Assembly (NCBI RefSeq): GCF_033153115.1
Contig: NW_026889765.1
Coordinates: 1,612,001 to 1,676,000 of the forward strand
Length of the DNA: 64,000 nucleotides
Origin: Saccostrea echinata
Lineage: Eukaryota
Direction: 5' to 3'
Each line of letters begins with the position of its first letter. The first letter of the stretch is position 1. Below, piece after piece: positions 1,843-34,700 of this stretch. A model generated the notes under the pieces. It ran no database searches and had not been told where the DNA came from. It saw only the letters and a list, made by a program, of their open reading frames with translations. The translations under genes were made by a program, and so were the position numbers.

Positions 1843-2722
1843 AGTTAGAAAAACAAAGGATTTTACTGTTTAAATGACCCCATCTATTTTTGCCTTTTCT
1901 TGATTATCTTCCCTTGGAGCCCCCCCTTTTTTTTAAACTTGAATTTACTTTACCCAAGTATGCTTTGTGGCAAGTTTGGATGAAATTAGCAAGTGTTTCT
2001 AGAGAAGAAGAGGAAAATGTGAAAAGTTTACAGCAACAACAACAGAAATGAAAATGACAATGGACAAATTTTGATCAAAAAAGTTCATATGGACCTTTAA
2101 GTCTTTTGAACAATTATCCAAATTAACTTCCCTTGAGTGCACTCTTTTCCATTAAGTTTGATCTTATCCAGATCTTGCAAGATTTTGAAGGAAAACAAAT
2201 AATGTTATCTCATGATGCTCAATGCTCATCTTTAGGTTCCATGCCACTTTGTTTTCTTAACATTCCATTACATCATGCTTTATTTTTCCAAAGAAATCCC
2301 CAGTTTTGAGATCTACCTTCTGTCTGTTGTTAACTTAATGTCCCCAGCCCGTAGGATTGATGTCTCCTCTGGGCTCCTGCTATTTACAAAAGCACATCTT
2401 TTCCTAAACTTTAATCATAGACTGTTCAAAACTGTTTCTCAGATTTTTTTTTTGCCAACAGACTAACAGACAAACATATGAAAACATTTTTAAACTGTTC
2501 TAATTTTACATGGTTTTTTTTTATCTATCATACTAGTAACTTAGTAAGAATAAGTACCAAGTGAACAAAACACTATACATTTGATATTACACATGAATAA
2601 CAAAGATGAATGAATATTATAGTAGTTTTATTTAAGCCATTAAACAAGTCTGCATTAACATGATGCCTCATACAAAGATCTCTGAAATAAAATTAAGTTT
2701 TTCTTGAATTCCTTTAACACTT

Positions 2723-10264
<7,542 letters not shown>

Positions 10265-10705
10265 TTTGGCAGAGGTCCCCAGTGTACATCCAAATTCTGA
10301 TCCCGATGGTATTTTTAAAAATATATATATTCTGAACTCTGAACTTGTTTTAAAAATCGAAATTATTTTTTTTTTAATGCTGTCTTATTTCAAAATTTGA
10401 GCTATCGACAACATAAATTAATAATGTAATTTCTAATAAGATTTTATTTATTGATCGGAATCGTAATACACTCAATTCAGTTGTCAACACCAAAGACAGA
10501 ATTAGTAGAAACTTAAGAAAGTCTCTTTTGTAATAAAGAGCTTGTTGTTGAGCTTATAACAGGTTTGATTACCTCATATTATGCTGGGGTTTTGTTTTTC
10601 CATGTCTTGTGTATAAGAGAATTGCAAATTAATGTCATATTTAATCTGTAGGCAACATTTTGTATCATTCTCAGCAGCTGCATGAAATGTTTTGTAGACG
10701 TTAAC
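10265..10705. promoter_or_regulatory. Putative bidirectional promoter / 5' UTR region between NDUFS8 and UBE3B
   Basis: Divergent start codons are ~440 bp apart. The UBE3B ATG exon has an acceptor (tttgtag, ending 10697), implying a short non-coding first exon inside this interval. No specific motif is claimed. Confidence 0.6.
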
Positions 10706-13700
10706 ATGTTCAGTAAAGTAGATATAACCAAAAAGAACCAGTTTTTGGAACAGACTAAAGCATTACGAGAAGAAAGAGCTAATGACAAACTAAAGAATGA
10801 TGCAGCCATTGTCATTCAAGTATGTTTAAACATCTTTTTTCTATTGTGGATGAGTGACCGGTGTAGATTAAGTTTATTTTCTGAATTGAGTTAATTTTTT
10901 CTTTTGACATTTAAGTGTTGAAAACTATGGAGCAAATTTACCATAATATTTATTATTTATCAAACTTTGATGAAATAGAATTGAGATCATGTAGATAAAT
11001 ATGTAGGTATTATAATTGAATGTTTGATATTTGTAGGCTACTGTCCGAGGATTTGTTACGAGGTGCAAATTACACAGAGAAATATGGTAAAATGTTTTCC
11101 AAGTTATTGAATGCAGCAGTTTTAAACTGAAATTATTTTAGTCTGTTAAAGGCATTAAGCAGTTTGAATTTCTCTTTTTTTTTAACCTTCTGCAGCAAAG
11201 AGCTAGAAGATGTGCTAGAAATTCCACCAGATCCAGGAGCAGTTTATAAGCCAAAGCTCAAACCAGGTTCTTTAAAAGAGATAAAATGTCAAAACCATGT
11301 TGCACATCTACATGATATTGCACATTTTTATTTTTTACTATTGCTTAGATGTAGGAATACCAGTTTTAATGATATTAATTTGTAAATCACAGCATTTTAG
11401 TTCATGGGAACCTTGGGGTCAAAACCAAACTTTTAAAAAAAGTCTTATTTCACATCTACAAGACATGAACAATCATATGCAAGTTTAGGTGATCTGAATA
11501 AATAAAAATGTAGGTTGTGTGATGACAAGAAGTGTGACATATTGATGAGAGGATGGGGTAAAACATTACATGAATTCTATATGGAAAGAGAGGGTATGGT
11601 AAAGGGCACATGAAATAAAGTGGTACATGTCTGGCCAGATTGATTTTATTGAAACACTGTAGTAATGACTGAGTATGATAAATTAAAAATAATGTGAAAA
11701 ACCTACATGATTGGCTTCAAAATGAAGAGTAAGTAAACTTAAGCACATGAACAGAAGACCCTTCCATTTATATATTCAGATATGTTTTACCAAAACTAGC
11801 TATGAATATAAGAAAATTTTGTTAATTTGTGACAATATATGTAGTCCTTACATCAAAACAATATGACTTTAAATGTTTAGATTTTTAATGATGAACAAGT
11901 GATATGGTTTTTATTCTCTTTACAGCACTTGAAGTATACAGGACAATACAAAAGTTTTTCTTTGTTTTTGACAAAGACAGAGATGCTGGGGTAATAAAGT
12001 CTGCATATTATAAAGCAAAAATTATGTCGATTACATAATGACAATACAAACACAGAGGGTGCTATTGCAATATGTGTAGAGTACTATACTACTGTAAAAA
12101 TGACTTTTAATCATCATGTAGAACTATACAAATGTATTTCTATATGATGGTTAAAGGGGCCATTTTGTACATTTGTATTTGTAGATGTACATGTAATAAT
12201 ATATAATTGTAATTTTCTTTATTACAGCAATTTGATTACCTCTGCAGATACCTACTGTCATCAATGGATACAAGTGCAGACAATATGAAGGTAAAGCCAA
12301 TTTTGAAAGATTCCATTAAAATATGCTACTTTTACTCATAAAATAATCAAATAAAGATGTCAATATTGGTCACTATGAGACTATGCAAGAGTTTTATTAT
12401 TGTTATTTAGATTCATGCTAATGAGTGCTTGTATATAAGACTAAGTTTAAAGAAAATTTGATTTCTCTTAAAAAGTCAATATTTAAATCTTTGTCCTTGT
12501 ATAGAGAGCAATATAACAACTATTTACAAGATCATTTCAGAGTCTTAAAACTTCCTTGGATCATGAAAATTATTGCACAAAAAGATTTCATTTTCAAGCT
12601 TTATTCAAATAAATCATAATTTCAAGTGGACATCCTTAATTACAAAGTTGATAACATTTTTTGCCATGGGCTGTGCACACCTTCTGCAATCTATTAAGAT
12701 GATTTTTTCCCTTAAATTTATAATGAGTCTACTCCTGTAACAGTCATATAGTGTAACAAGTCCTACTCCTGTTGTCAGTTGTATAGTACAAGTCCTACTC
12801 CTGTAACAGTCATTTGGTATAACAAGTCCTATTCCTTTAGTCAATTTTATAGTATAACAAATCTTACTCCTGTAGTCAGTTGTATAGTATTACAAGTCCT
12901 ACTCCTATGGCCATTTGTATAGTATAACAAGTCCTACTCCTGTGGTCAGGTGAATAGTATAACAAGTCCTACTCCTGCAGTCAATTGTATTGTATAACAA
13001 TTCCTACCCCTGTAGTCATACTCCTGTAACAGTGTTAATTATAACAAGTCATCTTTTTACTTTAGCAAGATGTACTCCTTTATAAGAAGTCATACCCTTG
13101 TAGCTTGTTGTTTAGTTTAACAAATCATACTCATGAAACACTTGTTAAGAATATTAAGTCCAACTTTTATATACAGTTGTGACCAAGAAATTAACAAAAT
13201 ACACTTTGTAATCATCAAATTTCTTTATTCACAGATGTGCTATGTTTATTTAGTATTGAACAAAGATGTTGTGTTACCCTGGATAGCACAGATCAAAGAA
13301 GTTTTGTGGAAGTGCTGCTCTTTTCTCAAGTCTTTAAAGGTATGTTACTTAGTACCAACATGTAATGTAGTCACTCTTATGTACATATCAAAGTGAATTT
13401 AGTTTTTAGAGGTTGTAGCTGAAATAAGTGACTTTTATAGTTTGAGGGTAAACTAAGCAGTCATAATTTAGGTTATAGTCATAGAATGAAATTATATTCA
13501 ACAAATACTGCTGTACCCTAATAGGTATTTCTTCACACAGAAATGAGATACTGACACTTGTTTATTAATCCCCTACCGGTGAAACCAGAGGGGACTTCGT
13601 CAGTTTGTCCATTTGTCTAGCTGTTAGTTTGTTTGTCAGTCTGTCCCACTTGGTTTTTCCTCACTTTTTTTTCTAAATGCTTGCAGATATTGAGCTGATT

Positions 13701-16700
13701 TTTGAGCTTGATAAGTTACAGATGCATTTTGCACCGCTTCAGTGATTTTTTGATCGAATTACAGCATTTTCAATTCTTAATAGGAAGCAGATTACACTTA
13801 CCAGTAGGGGACCGGTATTGCTAATGCATTACTAGCAGAATTCTTATTTGTGGGCTGAGAATCACTCTGATATGAAGTCAATATGTATTGGACTATACTG
13901 TGTTTATTTGTAGGCTGAGAATCATTCTGATATGAAGTCAATTATGTATTGGACTATACTGTGTTTATTTGTAGGCTGAGAATCACTCTGATATGAAGTC
14001 AATCTGTATCTGACTATACTGTGTTTATTTGTAGGCTGAGAATCACTCTGATATGAAGTCAATATGTATTGGACTATACTGTGTTTATTTGTAGGCTGAG
14101 AATCACTCTGATATGAAGTCAATCTGTATATGACTATACTGTGTTTATTTGAAGGCTGAGAATCATTCTGATATGAAGTCAATCTGTCTCTGACTGTGCT
14201 GCGTTTATTTGTAGGCTGAGAATCACTCTGATATGAAGTCAATCTGTATCTGACTGTGCTGTGTTCATTTGAAGGCTGAGAATCATTCTGATATGAAGTC
14301 AATATGTATTGGACTATACTGTGTTCATTTGTAGGCTGAGAATCATTCTGATATGAAGTCAATATGTATTGGACTATACTGTGTTCATTTGTAGGCTGAA
14401 AATCACTCTGATATGAAGTCAAGTTGTATCTGACCGTGCTGTGTTCATTTGTAGGCTGAGAATCACTCTGGTATGAAGTCAGTCTGTATCTGGCTGTACT
14501 GTGTTTATTTGTAGGCTGAGAATCACTCTGATATGAAGTCAATCTGTCTCTGACTGTGCTGCGTTTATTTGTAGGCTGAGAATCATTCTGATATGAAGTC
14601 AATCTGTATATGACTATACTGTGTTTATTTGTAGGCTGAGAATCACTCTGATGTGAAGTCAATCTGTATTGGACTATACTGTGTTCATTTGTAGGCTGAG
14701 AATCACTCTGATATGAAGTCAATCTGTATCTGACTGTGATGTGTTTATTTGTAGGCTGAGAATCACTCTGATATGAAGTCAGTCTGTATTTGACTGTGCT
14801 GTGTTTATTTGTAGGCTGAGAATCACTCTGATATGAAGTCAATCTGTATCTGACTATACTGTTTATTTGTAGGCTGAGAATCATTCTGATATGAAGTCAA
14901 TCTGTATCTGACTATACTGTTTATTTGTAGGCTGAGAATCATTCTGATATGAAGTCAATCTGTATCTGAATGTGCTGTGTTTATTTGTAGACTGAGAATC
15001 ACTCTGATATGAAGTCAATCTGTATCTGACTGTGCTGTGTTTATTTGTAGGCTGAGAATCACTCTGATATGAAGTCAATCTGTATCTGACTATACTGTTT
15101 ATTTGTAGGCTGATAATCATTCTAATATGAAGTCAGTCTGTATATGACTATACTGTGTTTATTTGTAGGCTGAGAATCACTCTGATATGAAGTCAATCTG
15201 TATCTGACTGTGCTGTGTTTATTTGTAGGCTGAGAATCACTCTGATATGAAGTCAGTCTGTATCTGACTATGCTGTGTTCATTTGTAGGCCGAGTATCAC
15301 TCTGATATGAAGTCAATCTGTATCTGACTGTGCTGTGTTCATTTGTAGGCCGAGTATCACTCTGATATGAAGTCAATCTGTATCTGACTGTGCTGTGTTC
15401 ATTTGTAGGCCGAGTATCACTCTGATATGAAGTCAATCTGTATCTGACTGTGCTGTGTTTATTTGCAGGCTGAGAATCACTCTGATATGAAGTCAGTCTG
15501 TATTTGACTGTGCTGTGTTTATTTGTAGGCTGAGAATCACTCTGAAATGAAGTCAATCTGTATCTGACTATACTGTTTATTTGTAGGCTGAGAATCATTC
15601 TGATATGAAGTCAATCTGTATCTGACTGTGCTGTGTTTATATGTAGGCTGAGAATCACTCTGATATGAAGTCAATCTGTATCTGACTGTGCTGTGTTTAT
15701 TTGTAGGCTGAGAATCACTCTGATATGAAGTCAATCTGTATCTGACTATACTGTTTATTTGTAGGCTGAGAATCATTCTGATATGAAGTCAATCTGTATT
15801 TGACTATACTGTGTTTATTTGTAGGCTGAGAATCATTCTGATATGAAGTCAGTCTGTATATGACTATACTGTGTTTATTTGTAGGCTGAGAATCATTCTG
15901 ATATGAAGTCAATCTGTATTTGACTATACTGTGTTCATTTGTAGGCTGAGAATCACTCTGATATGAAGTCAATCTGTATCTGACTGTGCTGTGTTTATTA
16001 GAAGGCCGAGAATCACTTTGATATGAAGTCAATCTGTATCTGACTATACTGGTAATTTGTAGGCTGAGAATCATTCTGATATGAAGTCAATTTGTATTTG
16101 ACTATACTGTTTATTTGTAGCCTGAGAATCATTCTGATATGAATAGAGTCAATCTGTATCTGACTGTACTGATTACATTCACGAGTGCAGGAGGGTGGAA
16201 GATTCTCAAGGGAAAACTGGGTAATGATAAAACAAATAGTGACTCATATATATAGAAATGAATTGGTTGTAAAGTGAATGAGGTCTAAATTTAACTGAAT
16301 GGTAGATTTATAATTTTACCAAAAAATTCTTTGTTGCATTTAAAAATTTCTTTAGCCTTGTTGAAAAATTTGTTTTGGCAAATGATTTATTTATTGCAAG
16401 GAAACATTTAAATTGGTGGAAACTACATCCTCAAATTTCAATGAACACATGGTAGTTTTAAAGTAGATTTTAACTTCATTGACCTTTGTAATGTGCACCA
16501 TCTCCTGATTTTCCATCTTTTATTCTCAGGAGAGACACTAACACCAGGCATGAATCAGCTATGTAACAATATAATGGGCCATCTTAATACAAAGGGATTG
16601 TATCCAGTGTTAAAGGTACCTTAAGTTTATAGAATGGAAGAATTTAGTGAATCAGCCTATTAATTATTTTTAGCTGATGCAGATTTAATTTTTACTTAAC

Positions 16701-19700
16701 ATACTGTTTTTCCCAGCACAAGGATTAAAATTTGTTTAGGCTTTAAGCTAACCCTTGTTTTTCAATACATCTGTTTGAAGGTTTTACAGATCACAATCTT
16801 TCCTAGTAATACAGTGGTTCCCGTTTTATCGAATAGTCAAGTTGTCAGCCTAGTTTTATCCGAATAGCCGAATATTAGAATAGCCGATTGCTCCATACCG
16901 AGTCCAAAGACAGATGTATAGAGCTACATGTATTGATAATACATCGTAGCAAATTTCAAACTTGCACTTTCGTTTTCTTTTGACATGTTTACTTAAAGAC
17001 TTTACTAAGAATAATTTATTTCACTTACTTATGAATTTAATATGAAAATTTTTTTCAAATAAATTGACGCATAGAATATATTCTTTGATAGTTATTGCCA
17101 TCGTTCTTCAGCACATGTTTACATTCCTTCTTCGATGGTCGCCATCTTGGAAACGGAAGTAGACTAAATGCTTGACTAATAACCGTAAACTATTTTTCCC
17201 TGGATAGATTGTAAATTAAAAATAAAAATATTAAATATATGTAATTGTTTCGTTTTGATTTGTTTCTTTAATACGGTTACGTATTTTATACTGTATGTAA
17301 GTTTACCAGTCTCGTACCTGTCTGCTGAAGAGAGATTTTGAGAGCCATGTGGAGAAAGATGGTATGAATTTTGAGACGTATATTTATAGAACGGACCATT
17401 TGTGATTTTTACCATAAATTTTGCACTGAAAAGTGAATAAATATTAAGCCAATTGACCAAGTTAAACGATTGAATAGGCTTATTTCATTATCCAAGCAAA
17501 TTGTCATACACAAGCTAATCAGTTCAATGATTAAAATTTCACGCCGAAAAAATTGCAAATAATTGTCATAATTAACAAGTGCATCATTGAACCCAAGCCG
17601 ATCACACAACTGTAATCAAAACATATCTATTTACTATGCTCACTATTGACACAGGTAAGGTGCCTGTGTGCGTCCAGGCGTAACTAATCCCCTCATTGTC
17701 GTACTCAAGCCAGTCAAGGTAATTGGTGTAAAACCGTGTAAACAAAGGCTTCACATACGAAGTTGGAGGTGTGAACAAGGTGCTGATTATCAATAAACAC
17801 TATGATAGTCCAAATTTTTGTATCGGATAAAACGAAAATCCAATATTTTCTCATCAGAATATCAGGTGAAATTATTAATAAATATATAAGAAATGGTTTT
17901 GTGCTCTGATATTATATTGAAATAGCCGAATTATTCATTAAACCGCTATCCGATAAAATGGAAGCCACTGTAACTACATATATGTAGCCTAGATTGGAAT
18001 AAATTCAAACATTTGTTTGCTGTAGACTTCAGTGTGTGGATTCACATTTTAATTACATGTAAATATTAATGTGACTATTTTTGTTCTCTATTTTTAGGGA
18101 CTTTTAGCACAAGGATTATCAAGGACCAAGATTTTGTTTAATTCTTCTACTCTTTCTGCTATTGTCAACCTGTCTCTGAGGTAAGTCAGAAACAAAAAAT
18201 CTGTTACTTTTTTTTAATAGTGGTGGCTTTAGAAGTGCAGATTAACAATGAAGAAAACATTTTACTGAAAAATTGATGACTTCTTTCCAAAATGTGAAGA
18301 CTTAATAAGATAAGTATTAGAGATAATGGAGAGGGTAAGGTATGTTTACTGAAACAAAGTTTTTTCCAGAATTCATGGAAATTTTCTATTGAAATCTCAA
18401 TTAAAGAAGCCAAAAGTACATAATTTTTCATGAATCATGAGTGTGTTGATATATATAACTTTTAACACTTTCAGGCCTCTGATTGCCTCGAACTTCTCAG
18501 AGAATCTGATGACTGTATTTGTCCTTCACATCATGTCAGTACCAGCTCTTCTTCATCATGTGGCTGTCAGCTCAGGGGAGGTAATTCATATAATATCTGT
18601 TCTTATACTTAGTTATTTCCCTTGGTTCCTTATGTTTTTTTTATGGACATTTTGACTATTTTTATAATTGAAGAAAAATAATCTTAAAGTTCTATAACCT
18701 GTAATAAAACAATGCTTAGATTTGTGCATTTAATGGTTAGGAATTTTTAGTCTTTTGCATTAGTAGGTAACTTTTGTTATAAACAGAGATATATTTACAT
18801 CGTTCGGTAATACTCCACATATTCAGGGTTTGAATATTGTTGGACTTGAATATTTGTTCTTACATGTATTCCTTTCATGTGGAAAGAAGGGAAAAAAAGA
18901 TGTCTCAACACTAAGTCACCTATATTACATTCAGGTTTATTTAACATATTTACATGTAGTACATGTATGCTGTAGAAAAAATACTTCTAGTTCCTGTAGG
19001 AGGTTTAAAGTGATTAAAAATTAGTGACAGTCAGTTGTAGAGGAATATTAACATACATAAACATGATTATGACAAGAAACTCATATATGTCACAAAATAT
19101 TCTACAGGATCATGACCACTTCTGAAACCACGGAAACTTACAATGGTAGGCAATGTGTAAGAATTGTAAATTTTGAATTCTACTTTTCAGTGCCTAAATG
19201 TTCTCATTACTCACCGTATCTTCAAACGAGCCCTGGATTTGCTGACCAATGAACAGAGCACGAGGATAATCTTTAATTCATTGGAAGGAAGCTATGCATT
19301 GTGTCTACTAGGTATTGTTGTCATATTAAAAAAAATATACTGAAACGCAAAAGAAACACAACAAGCAGTAATCTACAAATATTTGAATTTTTTATCTAAT
19401 GATTTTCGAAAATGAGTACAGTAAGGTAAAACTCGATTTAAAAACATCAGAGATTTGATAAAAATTTTGAATGGTTATCTTTTAACTTTAGAAAGTAACA
19501 CATGACTGTTAAAACACCCCCCACCCCGGCCATTCAATTACAGCGTGCAAGACTGCCATGCACAACAGTTGCAGCTTGATTGAAACAATAGGTTTATCAA
19601 TCTCGAGATCTGAGCGAAAGAAATATTCTTTGCCATTTTTAAATGTCTGTTTTTCAGATGATGAGGTCGAATTTTCTCTAGCCAAGCACAGTGTAGTAAC

Positions 19701-22700
19701 CCTTGGACTTCTGGTCCAAGGACTATCATTCATGCTAATGATACATAAGAGCCTGTTGAGGAGTGATGTGGTGCATATTTGCATCTACAACTCGCCATCA
19801 CCTTTATTTTGAGATTTTCCAGCTAGAGCAATGGAAATGCGTACATAAGTCATTTTCAGGAAGTCTTGGCATCGCTTACGGAAAAGAAAGGAGAATTTAT
19901 TTCTCGGAACATTGCTGCATTACTTATGATGAACAGATACAAATCCTTAAAACCCCATATTATTGCCAAATGTTTTATTAAACATGCAATTTTTGATTTC
20001 TATTAAGTGCACTCAAACTTAACTTCCGGTAATGGTATGAAAATCATTCAGCCGTTAAATTACTGATATTTACAATGCTGAAGATGTCCTTACTTTTTAG
20101 ATACAAAATTATATCCTATATGTAATATTTCCCCCGAAAATAGGATGTTGCATTTCTTTTGCGTTTCAGTATAGTTAAATGAAATTTCCTTGTCTTATGA
20201 TAAAATAGGAAAGTTATTAATTTTGATGGTTATTATACATGTAAATGAATTTGATAGATACAGTCAAACCTGTGATAGGTAAGATATTGAGGGGAAATTT
20301 TATATAGTTTATAGACAAGTATGACAAGCGATCACTTAGACAGGTATGTATAACCATGCTCCAGGGTAATCATAAGATATGAATGGAAGGAGCAGATTAG
20401 AAAAAGGAAAATTATTGTTAAGATTTTAAGTGTCACTTGACAGACATTTTATACAGGGGGTTACTAAGGCAGGTCTGACTGTAAATGGCCATTAGGCATA
20501 CAATTTTTCCTTTCATCTTACTAGTTTACCATAAATACTGGAAAAGTCATGATAGCAATAAAAAAACATTTTTTGCTGAAGGCTTGGCTTTGATGATAAA
20601 TACTTTTGTTTTAACTTTTAGCAAACTTGGTTGGTTTAGGAATGGCTGAATTAGAGGTATGTTAGAACTTTTAGCATTCATTGTACATGTATATTTTATG
20701 CACTTGACACTATTGTCTTCATATTCTGATTTAAATTTCTTGAACAAACTCACCATAGCATTTGATTTTTTTTTTCAGGGACTGGTTGAAAATACTCAGA
20801 ATTTTATGGTGAGTTTTGCCAATAATTCTATGTGAATTGATAAATGTGAACTCTGCATACAGATATTGTATTCTAAGATATTTTTTTCTACTCTTAGTCA
20901 GTGGTCATTCGGCTACTGGACAGCTGCAAGAAGTATGTCCTCAACAAGAAATCCAATCTGACCAGTTGGCATCTTATCCTTGGCTGGTTCTCACAGAAAT
21001 CTGATGAAAGGTACCTTAATGAATTTAAGCAAATTGTGCTGTTTAATTTTTTGAGATTTGGTCATTTTATTTTATTAATGTTCATATAAATATTTGTATT
21101 TTTAAAATTTTTGGAATTCCCCTCAAATATTTTAGTACATGAATTATTTACTGTGATTTTGATTGAATAGCAAATTTCACAAAAAAATGTACAGCAGATC
21201 TTACCCTTGTATAGTTTTTAAGACAATTGATGAAACATTGTTTTGATTAATTTGTGTGTCTACTGAAAATGCTTGTATCTGTACCATTAAATAACTTTAC
21301 AGCTTGAATGCAGCAATGCCACATGTAAAGGAGCAGATCAAATTGCTGTGGTCAGAGAAAATGATAAGAATTCTGTTTTCTGACCTTCTGGCATATGTAG
21401 AGGCAGAGAAAGAACAGGCTGTAGCAAAGAAGGAACCCTCTCCCTCAAAAAGTAAGGAACCCTCTTTCTCAAAAAGAAAAGGACTCTCTTACTTAAAAAG
21501 TAAGGGACCCACTCCTCAAAAAATAAGGGACCCTCTCCATCAAAAAGTAAGGAACCCTATCCCTCATAAAGTATGGGACCCTCTCCATCAAAAAGTAAGG
21601 GACCCTCTCACTCATAAAGAAAGGGACCCTCTCCCTCAAAAAGTAAGGGACCCTCTATCTCAAAAAGTAAGGGACCCTCACCCTTATAAAGTAAGGGACC
21701 CTCTCCCTCAAAAAGTAAGGGACCCTCTCCATATAAAGGTAAGGAACCCTCTCCATCAAAAGGTAAGGAACCCTCTCCCATATAAACTAAGGGACCCTTT
21801 CCATCAAAAAGTTGGGAACCCTCTCCTTCATAAAGTAAGGGACCCTCTCCCATATAATGTAAAGAACCCTCTCCCTCAAAAAGTAAGGGACCCTTTCCCT
21901 TATAAAGTAAGGAACCCTCTCCCTGAAAAAGTAAGGGACCCTCTCCCTTAAAAAGTAAGGGACCCTCTCCCTCATAAAGTAAGGGGCCCTCTCCATCATA
22001 AAGTAAGGGATATTCTCAATTATAAAGTTAGGGACCCTCTCTATCAAAAAGTAAGGGACCCTCTCCATCAAAAGGTAAGAAACCCTCTCCCTCATAAAGT
22101 AAGGGACCATCTCCCTTATAAAGTAAAGGACCCTCTCCCTCAAAAAGTAAGGAACCCTCTCCATCAAAAGTAATGAACCCTCTCCCTTATAAAATAAGGA
22201 ACCTCTCCATCAAAAAGTAAGGAACCCCCTCCCTTATAAAGTAAGGGACCCTCTCCATCAAAAAGTAAGGGACTCTTTCCATCATAAAGTAAGGAACCCT
22301 CTCCATCAAAAAGTAAGGAACCCTCTCCCTCATAGAGTAAGGGACCCTCTCCCTTATAAAGTAAGGAACCTTTTCCATCAAAAAGAAAGGAACCCTCTCC
22401 CTTATAAAGTAAGGAACCATCTCCATCAAAAAGTAAGGAACCCTCTCCCTCATAAAGTAAGGGGCCCTCTCCCTCATAAAGTAAGGGACCCTCTTACTCA
22501 AAAAGTAAGGAGCCCTCTCCATCAAAAAGTAAGGAACCCTCTCCATCAAAAAGTAAGGAACCCTCCTCCCTTATAAAAAAGGGACCCTCTCCCTTATAAA
22601 CTAAGGAACCCTCTTCATCAAAAAGTAAGGAACCCTCTCCATCAAAACGTAAGGGACCCTCTCCATCAAAAAGTAAGGAACCCTCTCCATCAAAAAGTAA

Positions 22701-25700
22701 GGAACCCTCTCCCTCATAAAGTAAGGGACCATCTCCCCTATAAAGTAAGGGACCCTCTCCCTCAAAAGTAAGGGACCCTCTCCATCAAAAAGTAAGGAAC
22801 CCTCTCCATCAAAAAGTAAGGAACCCTCTCCCTTATAAAGTAAGGAACTCTCTCCATCAAAAAGTAAGGAACCCTCTCCCTCATAAAGTAAGGGACCATC
22901 TCCCTTATAAAGTAAGGAACCCTCTCCATCAAAAAGTAAGGAATCCTCTCCATCAAAAAAGGGACTCTCTCCCTTATAAACTAAGAGACCCTCTCCCTCA
23001 TAAAGTAAGGGACCCTCTCCATCAAAAAAGGGACCATCTCCCTTATAAAGTAAGGAACTCTCTCCATCAAAAAGTAAGGAACCCTCTCCCTCATAAAGTA
23101 AGGAACCCTCTCCATCAAAAAGTAAGGAACCCTCTCCATCAAAAAAGGGACTCTCTCCCTTATAAACTAAGGGACCCTCTCCCTCATAAAGTAAGGAACT
23201 CTCTCCATCAAAAAAGGGACCATCTCCCTTATAAAGTAAGGGACCCGCTCCCTCATAAAGTAAGGAACCCATCATCAAAAAAGGGACCATCTTCCTTATA
23301 AAGTAAGGGACCCTCTTCCTCATAAAGTAAGGGACCCTCTATATCAAAAAAGTAAGGGACTTCATTCATACTATATTCTTATCATTTTGAACCCAGTGAC
23401 AGCACTGCATGAGGATTTTTCATGGAAGTCTTGAGAGTTCCTTAAATAGAATTTTTAAGACAGCTATTAGTTTGTTATGTGGGATGTGTACAATGTAGAC
23501 ATCAATAGTCGTTGATTATCCTCCCATTGAATTTAAAGTGCAATGATTGAATGTCTCATTATTGCTCCATGTGTGTCTAGCAAAGGGACTGTGGTTATTT
23601 CACTTAATATGGGATTCATGCCTGAATGTTACATAAATTCAAGCACTACCCAAAGCCATAGTTAGAAACATAAGAATGCATTATGTAGTATTTTTATTCA
23701 GTTTTTTATAATTTACAAGACAGCGCTCAAAGAGAAATGCTTGAAATATTTTTCACTGTAAGATTTAGAAGAAAACATTTGAACAAAAGGAATATTTTAA
23801 AGCATGCTAGTAAATACTATAGGTTTATGACTATTTTACAGACATATTAAAGAAAGCCATAGAAAAGGCCTCCTCTAAATCAACAGCTACCAAGATAAAG
23901 CTGGAGAGTCCGCTGGCCAAGACGACGTGTTACACGTGTGCCCTGTATCAGATAATGATGAACACACTCACTCAGCTTAGAATGGACATCCTCTCAGGTC
24001 TGTCTTGGGAGTTTTATCAATAAGTAATCAAACTTAACCAAACTAAAAGAGGTGTAAGGAAGAATAATGGAAAATATTTATTCTCTTTGTAACATTTTAA
24101 GAGATGAGCTCCGATTTGAGATACAAGTATAAATAACAATAATTGTAGAGAAATTTTATTGTAAATGAAATCAAGTTAATATCTGTTCTTTTGTCTTGTT
24201 TTTTAGTTTGAACAATATCCCATAAATATGTTCAATGATTGGTTAATTCTCAACAGGTATAAGTTATAATCAGGTGCTGCTACCAGCTTTGTGGAAGTTC
24301 CTCTGTGACCTTGGCCCAAACTGTGGCCTTAAGGTGTTTATTGACCTTTTGACCCAGACCCCCAACAGTGTCATACACCCAGTGTTCAGCCTGTTGACTG
24401 TATTCTGTGAGGCTGCTACTCATTATATCATGTAAGTGCTATCATTATATCACGTAAAACTGCTATCATTATATCATGTAAATGCTATCAATATATCATG
24501 TAAATGCTATCATAATACCATGTAAGTGCTATCATTATATCATGTTAGTGTTATCATTGTATCATGTAAGTGCTATCATTACTCGTAAATTTTATTTCTG
24601 GTGTTTACAAATATGATTTTTCATTAGGTACATATACATGTAATGCTTACATGCTTTGTACATGTACTGTAAACCAAGCTTTATATGCCAAAACTTTTAT
24701 TTGTGATTCGTTGTTCTGAAATTCATCCCTGATGACTCATTGTTGTGACTGAGACAATTTTCTACATATATACACAATTAAAATAAAGGTTGGCATTGAG
24801 AAATAGAAAAATATTTCTCACACAGGAATAGGAGTTGGTTTACAGTATATTACAAGGAAAGTGATATATTGTGTTTGAGTTCATTATTTTCATTTTTGTC
24901 TTTTGTATGCTTGGAATCTATATTCTTGAAAAGTGTTCAACTGTTAGGAAATATCTACCAACCAAAATAAATTAAAATATCACATATATTTTTGAATTGT
25001 CTATATCTCTCTTAAACAATGTAGAACACTGGACGATATGGAGATGTATGAACAACAGAAGATGTTTACACTGGATGACTACATCAGAATGAGCAAGTTT
25101 CTCAATTTATTTGTGTACAGAGTCACCTGGCACAATCTCATAGGTAAAGATTTGTTTTAATTAAGCTAATAACAGAAAACAATGAAGTTTATTTATATTA
25201 TATAGAATAAGTATCATAATTTTCAAAAGGAAACCTTGCAGCCGTAGATAAATTATTCTATCCTGGTTTTGATTAATATTATTAGCTATCTTCGTACCCT
25301 GTATTTGTTTGATGTAAATGTATGAGTACAGTATATAAATGGTGTCTGTTTTGGAAGGTAACAGTTAAAATTGACACCCCAAAGAAAACCATTGTCAACC
25401 AACGTGTCAGTGGAGGTTGACAATGGTTTTCCAAGGGTGGCAATTTCAACTGTTACCCTCCTAAACAGGCACCATTTATTTTATTATACTGAATGTCTTA
25501 TTGACTTAGGATGTCAGCAAAAAAAATTCATCGATCGTCTTTATGTTCACGTTTAGAAAGCTTTCGAACTTCCCGCTTCTATTTTTCTCAAAAAAAAGAT
25601 TTGAAAAAGATGTACCGACCTCTTTATTGTTTGTTTGATACTCAAAGAGTCCTTTATCATCTAAAGTTTCATAAATTCTGCACTCGCAAGCATGTTTCGT

Positions 25701-28700
25701 CTGTCCTTTGTTGTTTTCAAGTTAGCTACATCAAATGCAAGCTTTCATTGACGTCAAGTTTATTTGACTTTTTCAAATGCACAACAGATGTTTTGAGAAT
25801 TCTACGGTGAACCGTACGTGCATGAAATGCACGCATGTAACATTTTCATTGTGTTACCCATTGTCAAGTCTGTTGCTAATGCTGAGGGTAACATTACGGA
25901 TCATTAACTGCATCTAAACCAATCAGATTTTAGTATTTAACATGAAAGTATAATAATAGTTAATGTTTCACTCTGATCAGATTTAAGGAGTGTAGAGAGT
26001 GGAGAGTCTGACGTTTATAATGCTACGCACAACCTCTTGCTTCTGTTGTATGAGAGGGACTGTAGACGGCCATACGCTGAAAAGGATCATTGGCTCAACA
26101 GGTCAGTTCACAGGAAATAAAAAGCACAAAATAAATGTTACCCAAAATTTTCCCAATGAATTTCATGCAGGAAAAAAACACTTACGTGAATCTGACATGA
26201 AAGTTTTTTTTTAATTTGTTTCAAACTTTATGCGAGTTTTTAGCAAAAAATCTATTCATTTGAAATTTCACTGCTGCACAATTAGTTGTGTGTAGCAGTA
26301 AAGCATTTTTGAAAAAAAAAAGTTAGCCCTTTCAATCAATATTACCAAACTCTTTAGATTTTCTTCAGTGCTCTAAGTCTGATTAGTGGAGAAAGTGCAA
26401 TCTGGAGTTATTCTTATATGTAATGTTGTTTTTATTTGGTTGCAGAGACATCAAACCTAGTGCATTCCTTAAAGATTCTGACAGAGACAGAGCTATGGAG
26501 GTGCTGGTGAAGAAAACTCCTTTTATCATTCCATTTGCAGAGGTAATGCAATGAGGAGGTCTAAAAATTCTTGATACATTCAACAATTGTCTTGATGAAT
26601 CTTTAGTTTTGCTTACTCAGGTCATTTTTATTTTGTTTTTAGATGATATTTAAACAGATGAATTTTGCTACCTTATGAATTGCTATGTATTGGCATATGC
26701 TCTATTTGTATTGCCCTAATTTCAAATTGAGATTCATAAGAGAATTTGCTGGTGTTATTATATGAATATGTTTAAAGTTACAAAGAACGGTATTTCCCAG
26801 AGTATGTTTTAAATTAGCTGAGCACCATCTTTAATTTTTTGAGAAATTTTGAAAGCTTAACCCATTTCTGATTACTTGTAGAGAGTGAAGGCCTTCAGAC
26901 ATAGAGTACGGCTGGAAAAGGAGAGTCTGGGATTGACAGAATCAGCGGCCATTTCTCCTCAGTCCACACTCATCACCGTCCACAGAAATAGGGTTGTGGA
27001 GGTCAGTACTGGGTCTTGTGAAGGATTTATACAAACATAGTAGACAAGTGAACCACAGCAAATAATTTACCAAACACAGAAATTAGAGACTGTTGTAGTT
27101 ACATCGTGATATTGTACATTTCCCATGTAGCACCACAGGAGTCTGAAGTTTTTATTGTTAAAAAATAGTGGGGAAAAAAAATTCACCCTCTACTAGAAGG
27201 GTGGAATATTTTTTTTCTGGTATTTTTTTATGACACGCCATGAATATGGCCGGGGCATATAGTGTTTGTCATCTCCGTCCTTCCATCCTTCCATCTGTCC
27301 TTCCGTCGCACTTTGCGTTTAGCTCAGTTCAAAGCTCAGTTTAAAAGAAACTCTCCAAGATATTTTTATCACACTTCATATGCTGGTAGTCTATTTCTAA
27401 TACAAAACAAAGTATGGTATTTCAAATGTCTTTATCTAATAACATTCCAGCATATGCATAGTTCAAGAGTTCTTTATCTTACAACATTATTGCAAATATG
27501 AACAACAAATAAGACAACTAAAAATTATTTACATTACAAATTCAAATACACAATACTGGACAAAACTGGCTCAGTCACCCATGAAGAACTTGCTGGACTG
27601 AAGAATCCACATGGTAGAATCTTCCCGATGTGTGAGACATCGCCACAACGAAAATTGTTGAACCCAGCAAGACAGAGTTGGAAGATCCACATGGTAGAAA
27701 TTCCCCAGTACGAGTGTACTGCTGCAATAAAAATTTGTAAACTCTGCTCTAGAATTTTAACAACAAGGAAGTTTTAGCTGATTATAAATTTGTAATGGGG
27801 AAATTATGACAATAATAAGGCCAAAACTCAGGAACGAAAATATGAGTGACTGAGTGCCCCGTAAGTGTTTATAATTGTTCGCTATGGTAATACATACATG
27901 TTAATTATGAGATAAATTGAAAATGAGAACAAGATTTTTTAACTGTGAAAAAAGAAAAATATTACAAATAACATGTCTATAGATTGCGACATAGTAAGCC
28001 GTTTTATACAAGAAGAATATAACAACATGATAGCGACACAAGAAATACAAAGCAAGGTATAAACGATACAAAAATTGAATGAGAGCATAAAAATTAATCT
28101 GTAATCAGGAAACATTAAGTTTAAAAATATTGAGAATTACACACTATGTACACATTCACAATGGTGCCCGAGTCATCAGACTGTTAAACAATGCTTTTAG
28201 AATCTCTCGCAAAAGTCAACTGGTGATGAGCATGGACTGTTGCGTGTGTTTAATGGCTGAGTCTGGTGTTTTGATATATCTCGTATATGAATTGGAGGTC
28301 CATCTTCCTAGTGATTTGATAAGGTGGTCTTCGATGCGCGCTTTTGCTGCAGATGTAGCAGCACCAATTTGGAAAGAATGACCAGTGATGTAGCTGTCGC
28401 AGTGGTTTGAACGCTTCAGTAGATCCCTTAACATAGTCAAAAAATTACACCGACTGAGGGCAGATCCATTTTCCATGATGAACAGGGGGAGGTGCATTTT
28501 GGGATCAAAAATGGCATTTCTTGTAGATAAGTAGTTCTTTAGTTGTTCAAATGGACATAATACGGAATTATTTTTGAACAACTTGATCCCTAATCCTTTT
28601 CGGAAAGGATCAGTCTTGGATTGTTTAAGGAAGAGAACGACGTGGTCATTGTAGAATTGTACGTCGCTTATGCACAGATTAAAGTGAGGGTCGAAAGCTG

Positions 28701-31700
28701 CTTTGCATGTAAATTCTGCACATCTGAGGAAACCGAAAAAAGCCACTACACACACTGTTGTCATCAATGTATCCGTGTATTTTGAGTTCACACCTTTTTG
28801 AAGCACGCTGCACATGTCTTGTAACACATTGTAAGTAATAGGTTTCGGCTTGGATGGTAGGATTGACTTTGTCTTTTTATACCGCTAAGTAGCATGTGCA
28901 ATCTAGGTAGATTACCTGCCAAATCGGTGAAGGGGTTAGGTATACCTAGCAGGATGAGATGGTGTCGAATCCCGCAGAGGTAAAGTTTGATTGTTTGGTA
29001 AGACAGGTTCATGGAATCGTAACAGTAGGTGACAAATTCCATTAAAGTAGATTCTGACACACTTTGACACGTGTTGTTCATACGGCTAAATTTTAAGAAG
29101 GCTTGATATCCGGAGTTGTACGTAGCTCTAGTTGAAATGGATATGGAGTCTTCCATCAATGCTTCTATTCTGTGAGAGGTTTCCAAAGGACGTCCTGCAG
29201 GGGTGGGCAAGGATGAGGGTGTCTGTCTGCTTGAGGAGCTAGGCTTCTGAACTTGTTTATCTGAAATCGAGAGAAAGCATCTGCGATTACATTAGTTTTA
29301 CCTGGAAGGAATTCAGAATAAATGCAGAAATTGTATTTAGCTGAACACCAGGTTAACTGTCTCATTAGTTTCATAATAGAAAGAACTTTAGATCGCCCCT
29401 TTTGTATAATATTCACAGTAGCTAAGTTGTCACAATAAAAAAGTATTCTTTTGGTAGACCAACGAAGTCCCCAGAGAATGGAAGCTACAACGATAGGGTA
29501 CAGTTCATGGAGTGCCATGGATATGTCCTTGTCTTGTTCACTTGGTAAATCATCTGGCCATTTGTCACTGAACCAGTGACCTTTGAAATATCCCCCGAAT
29601 CCAAGGGTAGATGATGCGTCTGTATACAAATGCATACTATTAGCTGGAGTTCTTTCGATATCATAGAAAAATGATATGCCATTCCACTGATCTAAGAACA
29701 ATTTCCACATTTTGATGTCTTCTCTGCACTCTGAGGTCAGATGAATGTAATGGTGAAGCTCGCGCACAGAAGATGCTAGGCTCAACAAATAAGAAACAAA
29801 TGATCTTCCTGGTACGATTACGCGAGAAGCAAAGTTCAGATGTCCCAAAAGTTGCAACAATTCACGTTTTGTACAGCTTTTCTTCACGCTGAAAGTTTCC
29901 AACATTTCTCGTATTCTAAGAACTTTATCTGGAGGAAGTCATGCTTGCATTTTAGAAGAATCGAGAATTATTCCAAGGTATTCCATAACAGTATCTGGGC
30001 CCATGGTCTTGTGTAGAGCAATTGGAACGTTCAGCTTCTTAAAGATCATTGTCAGGAGGGCCATAGTCCGCTCCGCATCAAAATCTGGTCTATCTATGGT
30101 TAGGAAGTCATCCAGCAAATGCGTATAGATTCGATTTTGTAATTGTTTTGTGCTATCCAGCAAATTGCTTGGGAAAACTGATCGAAGATCTTTGGACTAG
30201 ATCTACATCCAAAGGATAAACGAGTGTAGTAATAGTATAAATTTCTCCACTTCACACAATATAAATGGTACTGAGAAGGTAGTATGGGAATAAGTTTAAA
30301 GGCATCTGAAATATCAGTCTTGCACATCAGAGAGCCTTGACCATTTTGCACAATAATTTTGATGGCATCATCAATACTCACATAAGAAAGAGAGCATTGA
30401 TTTTTATCAATGAGTTCATTTATACTTGGGTGAGTTTCATTGTTGTGAGGTGCAGAAAGATCCACGATTAGCCTTTTCTTTTTAGAATACTTATGTTCGG
30501 CGATTCCGAGAGGAGACACTCTGTAGTTTTCAAAAGGAGGTTCCTCATAAGGTCCTGAAAGAAAACCTTTTTCAATTTCCTTTGACAGCAACTCATCAAC
30601 AGTATCCATGTTCTGTAAAGCTGACCTCAAGTTTTTGCATTCTCATGTTTTCAAGTCTGTTTTCTGCACTTTAGTGTCAAACCCATTAGTAAAACCATCT
30701 AGAATGTAAGCAACAAAGTTAGGATTTTCAAGATTTTCAAGTTCTAGTTTCAACTGTTGAATGTTAATTGTTGAGCATGGAGATCCTGGAACAGATAGTC
30801 ATTTGGGATTGGTAGTAGAGGAAGATGTATTCTTAGTTTTGGTGAATTTTGAATTGCAAGTGAGCGATGAATGATCCTTTTTCTTGCATTGGCTACAAAT
30901 ATGAAGGAAAGGACAGTTGTTTCTTCCGCATTTCCTAGTAGAATTGAAATTGTTACAGATTTCCTGTCCATCGTGTAACAGCCTCTTTCTGCCATGCTTA
31001 TCTGTATTACTGTTTGAGGATTGATGAGAAGTCGTTGCTGAATTGCTCTGTGATTGAGGACAAAACCTAGTGTCATGAGAAACTTCTGAGCAGATAGAGC
31101 AGGATCTGGATTTAGATGCTACGAGTTGAATGAGATCTCTGTCTCTCACAGACCAGTCGACTTTAATCTTGTGAACGGCCAAGGCATTGGCACTTCTCAG
31201 AGAAAATAGCTTGTGGTACTCATAAAATCTTTTTCCGTAAACATTGTATATGTCGATGATATTGGCTTCATACTGATCTAATTCTTCTCTGCGATTAGGA
31301 AATGCCTGACACATGCATCGTTTATATTTTCCGAATGCGGTTAAAAACTCAGCAATAGTAAGGCACCTTTTAAGTCGGATATCTTCCTTCTCTGGTTTCT
31401 CTTTCTCTGAGGTAGTAATTTCGTAATAAGGAAGAAGCAATGTAGCAAGATTAACATCCTTACCGTCGATGATGTTTTTCCGAATGGAATTGGAAATCAA
31501 TTCCATTTGGGGCAATTCCTCCGGGTTCGTGCCTAATTTCCTCATGCTCTGGGTGTTTTCATTTGCCGTTTGGTAGAACTGCTGTAGAACTGCTGTAAAT
31601 TAAATGATGGCGAGCTGTTAGCGTTTGTGTCTTTCGTTGTAATAAGGGTAGTTAAACTCGAAACCATCGTCTGGAGGCTTTGAACTGTGTGCACAAGCGA

Positions 31701-34700
31701 CTCGATAACTGCTGGGGAACTCGAGGTAGCTGAACTTTGGTTTCCGCCGGAAGTAGTTGCACTTGGATAAGTCGTACTTGGAAAGGATGTCGTACTAGCT
31801 ACGGATACTGCAGACGAACTTTGGAGATTCAAAGATTGTCTGGAAAAACCATTTGTGTGGTCGAAATTCTCCGCGGAATTCACATCGATGGCCCTGCTTT
31901 CATTTTGACTGTTTGAAGCGTCAATATCTTTTCCCAACACATTGTCCACGTACAATTTCCGCAACACAGAGATAGGAAAATTGGAAGAGGCGCTTATATT
32001 AGCCTCTAACAGTTTTTCTCGTAGAACAACAGCGGACCAATTTAAATAATTTGTGGTGTCAAGAGAATCACCGGAGGTTCTTTGTCTTTTAGCACTTCTC
32101 CTGGTCGCCATTGTTGTTTTGAGATACGTTGATTTATAATATCGCAATTTCACTAATTAATGAAGTGTTTTTCCCAGAATTACATCGTCAAAAACACAAT
32201 TTAAGTACTCTGAAAGTAAATACACAAACAAACAAATCGGATGATCGATGATTATTAAGTAATCCTATGGATTAATGAAGACAATAATAGCTTGGTACTG
32301 ACACTGTCCGGGACCATCGAAAGATAAGAAATCATGTGACTAGCTATTCTTGACCTATTGACCAATGACTGATGGACACGAAAATCAGCATGTCTATTGC
32401 ATAATATTGGTAAACGTAAACAAAAGCAAAGGGGGGAAGGGCTTAGTTAGGCAAATTGTATGAAATAAACTTTGCTTAAAATTTTAATAAAATAATTTAA
32501 GCTACAAATATTGATGAGAGCTATGCAACTGCATCAAGATTTTTTGACCTTGACCTTTCCTTTGACCTTGACCTCACTTTTCTTAAATTAGTGTTTAGCT
32601 CAGTTTTAAAGAAACCATTCAGGATAATGTTATCAAACTTCATATGCTGATACATACTGATGTAGGCTACTCAACTGCATCAAGATTTTTTGACCTTGAC
32701 CTTTCCTTTGACCTTGGCCTCACTTTTCTTAAATTAGTGTCTAACTTCATTTGCTGAAACATACTGATGTAAGCTATTCAACTGCATCAACATTTTTTAC
32801 CTTGACCTTTCATTTGACCTTGACCATACTTCTCTCAATTTGTGTTTAACTCAGTTTTAAAGAAACCACTCATAATATTTTTATCAAACTTCATATGTTA
32901 ATACGTACTGATGTAAGCTTTTCAACTGCTGCATCAACATTTTTTGACCTTGTCCTTGACCTTTCGTCTTTCCTTTGACCATAACTTCATTCATTTTAAG
33001 TTAATGTTTAGCTCTGTTTTAAATAAACCATTCAAAATATTTTTATCAAACTTAATATGCTGATACGTATTTGTGAGAACTATTCAACTGCATCAAAAAT
33101 GTTTGACTTTGAACTTTCCTGTGACCTTGACCTCACAAAATTTGCATTTTGCTGTGTTTTAAAGAAATCATTTAAGATATATTTATGTAAGCTTATGCAC
33201 TTGTACATAATTTGGTGAGAATTTATCATCTATATCCAACTTTTTAGATTTCAATTTTAAAGAAACTATTCAAGATGTTCTCATCAAATTTCATACACTA
33301 ATACAAATTTTTATGTTGCATTACTAATATACCCTCGACGGGGCATTCATGTCCTCTGGACATATTTCTAATTTTACAATAAAAACCAACTCCTGTGGTA
33401 GCACAGGAAAAACAAAATAATATTTCATTTAGATTTAACACTGGCTTTAGATTATCAAAGCAAATTCTTTTTAACATAACAAATTAGTTAAGTCACAGTC
33501 AATACTATAATATTTTTTCCCCCTGATATTAAGGATGGCTATAGACAATTGGCTCAGATTCCTGCCCAGTCCTTGAAGGGAGTGATCCGTGTTAAGTTTG
33601 TCAATGAACAAGGTCTGGATGAAGCAGGGATTGATCAAGATGGTGTCTTTAAGGAGTTTCTGGAGGAAACTATATCTAAAGTGTTTGATCCTTCACTCAG
33701 TCTCTTTAAGGTATTTTACTAATTATGTTAAGTGTTTAAAAGTACCAGTGTCATTGTGTGTGTATGTTCTTGTTTTGTTTTGTTTTGTTTTTTTTTGCAT
33801 TAAATTGAATTTTTTTTTTTGAAGATTTATATCATTCTATTTTCATTTTAAAATAGGATATTTTCCCATTTGCATCAGGTAAACTTTTGTCACAGACATT
33901 TACTCAATAGAAAACAATTTTAATTGAATACATTTATAAACATATTCTTTTAGGTCACTACAGAACAAAAGTTATTTCCTTCGTCAACCTCTTTTATTCA
34001 AGAAAACCATCTTCACTTGTTTGATTTTGTGGGGAAAATGTTGGCAAAAGCTGTGTATGAGGTGAGAAAGATATTTAAAAGAACATCATAAAACTTTGGA
34101 CTTTCTGTAGATAATTTGACTTTCAATATTACGTATTATTCTTCCTTGTTTATTAGGGTATAGTTGTGGACGTGCCTTTTGCTCCATTTTTCTTGACTCA
34201 GATCCTTCAGCACCACCAGAGCACATTGTACAGTCCTCTAGATGAACTGCCTTCCTTAGATCCAGAGCTAGCAAAGAATCTATCTTATACCAAGGTAATC
34301 ATGTTTGGCTCAAGAGAATATATCTGAATAAAGGTCTAATGGACTTTGTAAACTTTTAACATCCAGATCTACTGGACCACTTTTGATCTTTGGGCTTAAG
34401 GGGATTCTGATTTGTTTGTATGAAATAAGAATAAGTGGAGAGAGAGTCATTAAATTTTTTTCTGCCAACTCACAGAGTAGGAAAAGACAAAACATATGTA
34501 AATAACTTTATCATTTAATATAGACTTATTTTTATTAGTCATAGTTTTGTAGGAATAAGTAGGATATACCGGATAATGGAAATTTTCCTCCCATCAGAAC
34601 ATGTAAGGCTGCACTGTGAAAGCATCCCCATATATATGTAGTGTGTTTGTTTAAGTAAGTCAAGACCCCCTCAGCAGGGATAGGGCCATAAAAAGATCTA

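What the first reader, a model, noticed from the sequence alone, without database searches (positions are those of the whole stretch)
13843..16220. About 38 decoy 3' splice sites, each leading to a stop codon, precede the real exon
SEEN: most 58-60-bp units contain a branch-like YTGAC (derived from exon codons CTG ACT), a T-rich tract and TAG. Every copy lacks the 4 nt TAGA present in the real exon, so splicing to a copy reads [12 protein letters not shown] or stops at the next unit's TAG. The 5'-most copy has lost its AG (tttgtGG). Only the last acceptor (16120) lies 100 nt from a donor. INFERENCE: this is a natural test of exon definition, and array length could set the fraction of NMD-targeted UBE3B transcripts.
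Basis: partly seen in the sequence, partly recalled or inferred. Interest (0 to 1): 0.7.

Follow-up and report, generated by a model that had tools for sequence, protein, structure and literature searches.

The report
Oyster UBE3B splice-acceptor "mirage" minisatellite
An intron of a rock-oyster ubiquitin-ligase gene ends in 38 tandem copies of its own intron-exon border (6 in a second, likely allelic, copy of the gene), the transcripts assembled from four public runs enter the exon at the genuine last border, and the array is likely a tolerated repeat of a kind already described in lancelets rather than a switch for gene dosage.

Summary
The array is real. Intron 6 of oyster UBE3B ends in 38 tandem 58-61-nt copies of the intron 6/exon 7 border; 37 keep an AG and all 38 read into a stop. 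A collinear second copy of the locus in the assembly, likely the other haplotype, has 6 units, and both copies keep a full 1068-aa frame. In 4 of 4 runs laid, assembled contigs join exon 6 to the last acceptor; none of 9 contigs joins it to a copy. These contigs cannot show rare or NMD-degraded forms, and none comes from the window's own allele. This is a 'mirage' minisatellite, described in amphioxus; the scan noted one in this genome's parkin gene and many in other genomes. The stops are expected by chance (84% of shuffles). The claim that only the last acceptor has a donor fails: 8 array GT sites outscore the real donor on a rough matrix. No evidence supports an NMD rheostat. Extras: four of the gene's 56 splice junctions are duplicated, and the Ala/Pro variant at the exon's first codon also occurs in repeat units. 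Verdict: new member of a known kind; low interest.

The parts
10706..45950 (+). UBE3B coding span, 29 exons, 1068 aa
   Evidence: Homology-guided model; 975/1068 identical to Ostrea edulis UBE3B; 1068/1068 identical to P0010, RefSeq XP_061179692.1, Saccostrea echinata
13235..13339 (+). Exon 6, phase-0 donor AAG|GTATGT
   Evidence: its last letters are the loose ends joined to exon 7 in 4 of 4 runs
13340..16120 (+). Intron 6 (2781 nt), holding the array at its 3' end
13820..13853 (+). Likely original intron end: branch-like CTAAT (A at -30) and an acceptor that reads GG instead of AG, in both copies of the locus
   Evidence: 'original' is inferred, no outgroup DNA was available
13854..16120 (+). 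Mirage minisatellite: 38 units, each the first ~47 nt of exon 7 (4 nt lost) plus the last ~11-13 nt of the intron; 31 distinct unit sequences
15945..16051 (+). Candidate 107-nt stop-containing pseudo-exon, long allele only (acceptor score 8.6, donor CTG|GTAATT 7.3; 69 nt to the real acceptor). Not seen in RNA.
   Evidence: absent from the second copy; untested prediction
16098..16120 (+). Working acceptor: exon-derived branch-like TTGAC (A at -20) plus the native intron end
   Evidence: branch use is inferred from the motif only
16121..16220 (+). Real exon 7 (100 nt); first codon Pro here, Ala in the second copy
21426..23360 (+). Second mirage in the gene: 24-nt donor array after exon 15 (81.5 copies; 46.5 in the second copy); first donor at 21452 is used
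24414..24581 (+). Third mirage: 22-nt donor array after exon 17 (7.5 copies in both copies of the locus)
42899..42951 (+). Fourth: single 53-nt duplicate of the exon 25 acceptor and exon start, in both copies

Best explanation
This is a variable-length minisatellite made of copies of the intron 6/exon 7 border of oyster UBE3B (a 'mirage'), assembled transcripts enter exon 7 at the last border, and the other 37 acceptors are likely silent because splicing likely pairs the acceptor nearest the exon's donor. Shown: unit anatomy, 38 versus 6 copies, intact frames in both copies, use of the last acceptor in assembled RNA. Inferred origin: one duplication of about 62-64 nt across the border (a 3-nt TTA match at the junction fits slippage), loss of 4 nt in an AG run in the founder unit, then expansion and contraction by slippage and unequal exchange. 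Inferred choice: the upstream intron is long (2.8 kb), so sites are paired across the exon; only the last copy carries the purine-rich 3' half of exon 7 and the authentic donor. Any rare use of a copy gives a premature stop and would be removed by NMD, as a by-product and not as a design.
For: Units are exon start plus intron end. Length differs 38 versus 6 between two copies collinear over the whole window and also 1 Mb away. Both copies keep all 28 introns GT-AG and a 1068-aa frame, with 44 of 48 coding differences silent. In 4 of 4 runs (3 samples, 2 studies) a contig joins exon 6 to 16121, and 0 of 9 contigs join exon 6 to a copy. The donor array of exon 15 behaves in mirror image: listed contigs of 4 of 4 runs end at the first donor although 57 of the 65 other GT sites score as well or better. 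18 of 37 copies score at least as well as the real acceptor, so site strength does not explain the choice. Exon 7 nt 67-100 are 74% purine against 48% in the array. Stops are expected by chance. Amphioxus mirages have the same anatomy, vary between haplotypes and are reported not to disturb splicing (PMC3087553 section 16; PMC3902484 passage). With large flanking introns, sites closest across the exon are preferred (PMC9225289 abstract and section 9).
Against: The RNA evidence is assembled contigs at depth 3.9-6.9 in three runs and 32.5 in a more distant organism; rare forms are dropped and NMD was not blocked. All four runs carry G at 16144, so the window's own 38-copy allele was not observed and copy numbers in those animals are unknown. 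Two array-only contigs exist (depth 3.1 and 2.1); collapsed pre-mRNA explains them but so could some extended exons. Copy 38 would give a 158-nt exon of normal size, and 8 array GT sites outscore the real donor, so simple exon definition by distance is not enough; the enhancer step is untested. For 3' sites, PMC9225289 section 9 reports an overall upstream preference that is only 'significantly reduced' in the long/long class. A human intronic VNTR does change splicing with length (ABCA7, PMC5954066 abstract).
Confidence: 0.8

Rival explanations
1. Length-dependent leak: each extra acceptor, and donor-like sites inside the units, diverts a small share of transcripts to NMD, so long alleles make less UBE3B. 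The likeliest route in the 38-copy allele is a 107-nt poison exon at 15945-16051.
For: All copies lead to stops at least 119 nt before the next junction. The candidate exon's acceptor equals and its donor exceeds the real sites on the matrix, and it is absent from the 6-copy locus. ABCA7 VNTR length tracks exon skipping and expression (PMC5954066 abstract). Array-only contigs occur in 2 of 4 runs.
Against: 0 of 9 contigs show such a junction. The matrix rests on 27 sites. The 69-nt gap after the candidate exon is shorter than the gene's shortest intron, 89 nt. Amphioxus mirages and F7 pseudo-sites are reported silent.
Confidence: 0.12
2. The 38-versus-6 difference is not allelic: the two loci are paralogues in a megabase duplication, or the long array is inflated by the assembler.
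For: RefSeq lists two proteins. Two other C16 test stretches (8 and 20 Mb) had no full-length partner among the 40 candidates scored each. Introns 7-14 differ by 8-14% between the copies.
Against: Long blocks differ by under 1%. A stretch 1 Mb away matches at 98% over 3 kb in the same order, as expected for a haplotype overlap at a contig end. 31 of 38 units are distinct, which argues against mechanical inflation. Tandem units also occur in contigs of two independent studies.
Confidence: 0.05
3. The array is a selected regulatory device (a decoy sponge or NMD rheostat) whose stops and lost first AG are kept by selection.
For: Copy 1 lacks its AG in both loci, and the two acceptors nearest the real one are weakened in the window (scores 2.6 and 6.0 against 8.6).
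Against: In the second locus the nearest competitor is intact and outscores the real site (10.0 against 8.6). Stops arise in 84% of shuffles. Copy number differs sixfold. Array ends escape homogenisation in amphioxus mirages too.
Confidence: 0.03

Closest known systems
Amphioxus 'mirage' minisatellites, above all the BflGb6 acceptor mirage; also Adh3, BflGb9, troponin C, PGBD5 (PMC3087553: passages and section 16 read; PMC3902484: one passage; Canestro 2002 not held)
   Same: Tandem copies of an intron 3' end plus exon 5' part; many but not all keep the AG; copy number differs between haplotypes (6 versus 3 in BflGb6); end copies diverge; several per gene; normal mRNA is made.
   Different: A bivalve, not a lancelet; 38 copies against 3-6 in BflGb6; founder unit carries a 4-nt loss; a coding variant is shared between units and the live exon; somatic instability not tested.
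Human F7 intron 7 37-bp VNTR (PMC1557585, abstract only)
   Same: First unit spans the exon border; identical pseudo-sites are functional but silent; the site next to the exon wins. The 24-nt donor array after exon 15 here is the direct counterpart.
   Different: Donor-side array; the finding is acceptor-side, where each unit also needs a branch point. F7 was tested with 50 constructs, this locus with none.
ABCA7 intronic VNTR (PMC5954066, abstract only)
   Same: Intronic VNTR with large length differences; precedent for length tracking splicing and expression.
   Different: There the effect is shown (exon 19 skipping); here none is seen. The abstract does not describe that VNTR as copies of a 3' splice site.

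Membership tests
Mirage minisatellite (as described in PMC3087553) | Head-to-tail units that span an exon-intron boundary of the host gene | tested here: met
   38 units = exon 7 start + intron 6 end
Mirage minisatellite (as described in PMC3087553) | Many but not all units keep the splice signal | tested here: met
   37 of 38 keep AG; copy 1 reads GG
Mirage minisatellite (as described in PMC3087553) | Copy number differs between haplotypes | tested here: met
   38 versus 6; that the second locus is the other haplotype is inferred from collinearity
Mirage minisatellite (as described in PMC3087553) | Regular mRNA is spliced at the authentic site | tested here: met
   4 of 4 runs join exon 6 to 16121; dominant form only, window's allele not sampled
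Mirage minisatellite (as described in PMC3087553) | No aberrant transcripts from the copies | tested here: inconclusive
   0 of 9 contigs, but low depth, rare forms dropped, no NMD block
Mirage minisatellite (as described in PMC3087553) | Concerted evolution inside the cluster | tested here: inconclusive
   Adjacent units differ slightly less than all pairs (4.9 against 5.6 edits, no test); local runs of like units at copies 25-27
Mirage minisatellite (as described in PMC3087553) | Somatic length instability (Adh3) | not testable with these tools
   Needs single-molecule typing of one animal
Expression-modulating splice VNTR (ABCA7 type) | Splicing or expression tracks repeat length | not testable with these tools
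   No genotyped expression data; only assembled contigs were served
Regulated poison-exon / NMD switch | A stop-containing isoform is seen and rises under NMD block | tested here: inconclusive
   No such isoform in 9 contigs; NMD block not available

The most novel reading that the evidence does not exclude
The mirage is an active part of the gene. The 38-copy allele has built a 107-nt poison exon from its own units and loses a measurable share of UBE3B mRNA to NMD. Crossovers inside the array also move unit variants into the live exon: the Ala157/Pro157 base occurs both in units and in exons, in crossed pattern between the two loci, and haplotype divergence jumps from 2.5% to 11.6% across the array. 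Mirages would then be a common source of dosage and coding variation in oyster genes (4 of 56 junctions here).
Probability: 0.12. Interest if true: 0.5.

Novelty: new member of a known kind. Interest (0 to 1): 0.2.

Why it matters
As it stands it is an ordinary member of a described repeat class and mainly shows how tolerant long-intron splicing is of dozens of equal acceptors. Its practical value is as a test locus: one animal likely carries a 38-copy and a 6-copy allele with 48 coding differences, so allele-specific RNA reads would measure any cost of extra acceptors directly, and acceptor and donor arrays sit in the same gene. If the long allele leaked to NMD, or if unit variants were shown to enter the coding exon, mirages would move from clutter to a source of heritable dosage and protein variation in oysters.

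Tried and rejected
Metagenome scan for the unit motif: 0 matches. Run search: no holder is on record as RNA and all six are contigs, not raw reads; GT-AG joints show that the runs laid hold spliced sequence. Zero cover in intron 7 and at 16030-16050 is no evidence. Canestro 2002 is not held. 'Stops are selected': rejected, 84% of shuffles stop. 'Nearest competitors were weakened by selection': rejected, not so in the second locus. 'Divergent block is bounded by both arrays': rejected, the right edge lies near 21,140, about 300 nt before the donor array; only the left edge falls at the acceptor array. 'Mirages are enriched at junctions': suggestive only. 4 of 11 hand-listed duplications span a junction against 1.1 expected (p 0.011); 3 of 10 without the array that was pointed out (p 0.05); TRF-only p 0.075 (two loci inside the insertion were kept though its length was subtracted). 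A position-based control gave 98 of 2914 (3.4%) against 4 of 56 (7.1%). Isoforms with array-derived insertions in relatives: none among 20 proteins aligned; their insertions lie elsewhere. No Pfam match for the two frames tested over the 59-nt array at 52039-52288, so it was not counted as a mirage. Literature: 'mirage(s)' searches gave only two amphioxus papers; oyster and Saccostrea searches listed no such array (15 of 707 listed); one search gave 0 papers; two searches gave the F7, ABCA7 and proximity papers. The library lacks most subscription journals.

Full report
Setting. The window holds a 29-exon gene from 10706 to 45950 whose model translates to 1068 aa. It is 975/1068 identical to Ostrea edulis UBE3B and identical to RefSeq XP_061179692.1 of Saccostrea echinata. 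The finding is the 3' end of intron 6 (13340-16120) and exon 7 (16121-16220).

Observation. TRF reports one array of period 60, 39.0 copies, 91% matches. Splitting it gives 38 copies before the real exon: 30 of 60 nt, 7 of 58 and 1 of 61. Each is about 47 nt of exon 7 start followed by the last 11-13 nt of the intron. 37 of 38 follow an AG; copy 1 follows TGG. A YTGAC with its A at -20 or -22 precedes 25 of the 37. All 38 lack 4 nt relative to the exon, and all 38 reach a stop within 21 codons.

Corrections. The lost 4 nt fit a slip in an AG run of the ancestral ATGAAGAGAGTC: the second locus, 4 of 4 runs and the other oyster proteins have G (Lys) where the window has T. The stops need no explanation: 84% of 5000 shuffled units stop within 66 nt, and an undeleted unit would stop too. 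The last acceptor is not the only one near a donor. Copy 38 would give a 158-nt exon, within the gene's 30-183-nt range. On a matrix trained on the gene's other 27 sites, which is rough, 18 of 37 copies score at least as well as the real acceptor and 8 GT sites in the array outscore the real donor.

Length variation. The assembly holds a second copy of the locus on C54, collinear across the window at 85-99%, in both flanks and 1 Mb away (98% over 3 kb). Two other C16 stretches had no full-length partner among 40 scored candidates each. I read this as a haplotype overlap at a contig end (inference); a megabase duplication is not excluded. The second copy has 6 units, the same GG at copy 1, all 28 introns GT-AG and a full frame with 48 base and 4 amino-acid differences. 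31 of the window's 38 units are distinct, which argues against an assembly loop.

RNA. Six runs were listed, all as assembled contigs and none on record as RNA; five were laid, and GT-AG joints show spliced sequence. On 16030-16640, 4 of 4 runs (3 samples, 2 studies, one a more distant organism) have a contig that carries the end of exon 6 into 16121 with the full exon form. Of the 9 contigs laid, none joins exon 6 to a copy. Two low-depth contigs hold tandem units only (90 nt at depth 3.1; 254 nt at 2.1). If 12-76 copies collapse into them, per-copy depth is about 0.03-0.26, a few percent of the exon at most, which pre-mRNA would explain (my arithmetic; inference). These data show the dominant form only. 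They cannot bound a leak, NMD was not blocked, and the window's allele was not among them.

Three more in the same gene. A test of all 56 junctions found 4 duplicated: this one, a 24-nt donor array after exon 15 (81.5 copies, 46.5 in the second locus), a 22-nt donor array after exon 17, and a single 53-nt duplicate of the exon 25 acceptor. Listed contigs of 4 of 4 runs end exon 15 at the first donor, 21451 (table cut, stretch ended at 21470). In both arrays covered by RNA the site next to the exon is used. Enrichment at junctions is suggestive only (p 0.011, or 0.05 without the array that was pointed out; 7.1% against 3.4% in a position control).

Mechanism. Origin (inferred): one duplication across the border, a 4-nt slip in the founder, then turnover by slippage and unequal exchange. 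The first copy keeps what looks like the original intron end, with a branch-like CTAAT at -30, while today's acceptor uses an exon-derived TTGAC at -20 (motif only). Choice (inferred): with a 2.8-kb upstream intron, sites are paired across the exon. PMC9225289 reports that sites closest across the exon are preferred with large flanking introns (abstract), though for 3' sites its section 9 describes an upstream preference that is only reduced in that class. Only the last copy carries the purine-rich 3' half of exon 7 (74% against 48% purine) and the authentic donor; that purine-rich exon sequence acts as an enhancer is recalled knowledge, not tested here. Stray use of a copy places a stop at least 119 nt before the next junction, which meets the usual 50-nt NMD rule (recalled).

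Signs of exchange. All window units start with G or A while its exon starts with C; in the second locus the exon starts with G and 2 of 6 units start with C. This is Pro/Ala at residue 157. Saccostrea cuccullata and Ostrea have Ala, Crassostrea and Magallana Pro, and both bases appear in runs of one sample (X2, X3). Intron divergence between the loci is 2.5% just before the array and 11.6% just after exon 7. A crossover inside the array would explain both; recurrent mutation and chance placing of a block edge are not excluded, since divergence is patchy across the window.

Known kind. PMC3087553 (passages and section 16 read) describes 'mirages' in amphioxus: tandem copies of an intron 3' end plus exon 5' part, many with splice signals, 6 versus 3 units between haplotypes, no interference with splicing. 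PMC3902484 (one passage) adds troponin C and PGBD5. The defining paper could not be read, and I did not open the supplements of PMC3087553, whose unit alignments may bear on the fine comparison. The human F7 VNTR is the tested donor-side counterpart (PMC1557585, abstract); ABCA7 is the precedent for a length effect (PMC5954066, abstract). Four membership features were met, two were inconclusive and one could not be tested. I found no paper on such arrays in oysters, in a library without most subscription journals. I reached the mirage reading; the scan's notes, seen later, hold one in this genome's parkin gene and 33 findings in at least 11 genomes under matching words (8 shown, unchecked).

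Verdict. Real, largely as described, and a new member of a known kind. Silent mirage 0.80; length-dependent leak 0.12; not allelic or inflated 0.05; selected device 0.03. Interest 0.2.

Noticed in passing
window 21426-23360: 24-nt donor mirage after exon 15, 81.5 copies against 46.5 in the second locus; the unit length keeps the frame and the frame runs open to 21951, so use of a later donor could add residues rather than a stop. Contigs use the first donor.
   Followed up: partly
window 24414-24581 and 42899-42951: Two further junction duplications (22-nt donor array after exon 17; 53-nt acceptor duplicate before exon 25), present in both loci; not checked in RNA.
   Followed up: partly
window about 27230-33371, minus strand: About 6.1-kb insertion in intron 21, absent from the second locus, with reverse transcriptase, tyrosine recombinase and CCCH-finger matches, mostly below Pfam cut-offs; looks like a DIRS-type retrotransposon (label recalled).
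   Followed up: partly
window 37243-38826, minus strand: 527-aa open frame with B-box and NHL matches (TRIM-like), nested antisense in intron 24.
   Followed up: no
window 16221 to about 21140: Introns 7-14 differ by 8-14% between the two loci against 1-3% on either side, while the 12 coding differences in exons 8-14 are all silent; an old haplotype block whose left edge is at the array.
   Followed up: partly
G000:C54 33263101-33264551 (L002 about 205-790 in part): About 1.45-kb insertion in intron 6 of the second locus, just after the exon 6 donor, absent from the window.
   Followed up: no
window 7275-7538, minus strand: Exon with a 4Fe-4S motif resembling complex I subunit NDUFS8 (name recalled), in a gene facing away from UBE3B.
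   Followed up: no
window 50363-51403 (+) and 55896-56507 (-): 346-aa galactosyltransferase frame and a tubulin-family exon downstream of UBE3B.
   Followed up: no
window 52039-52288: 59-60-nt tandem array whose units hold CAG-GT; no coding match found next to it.
   Followed up: partly
window 16810-17970 and 19330-20170: Intronic stretches covered by high-depth contigs with many differences and loose ends in all four runs: likely dispersed repeats transcribed elsewhere.
   Followed up: no
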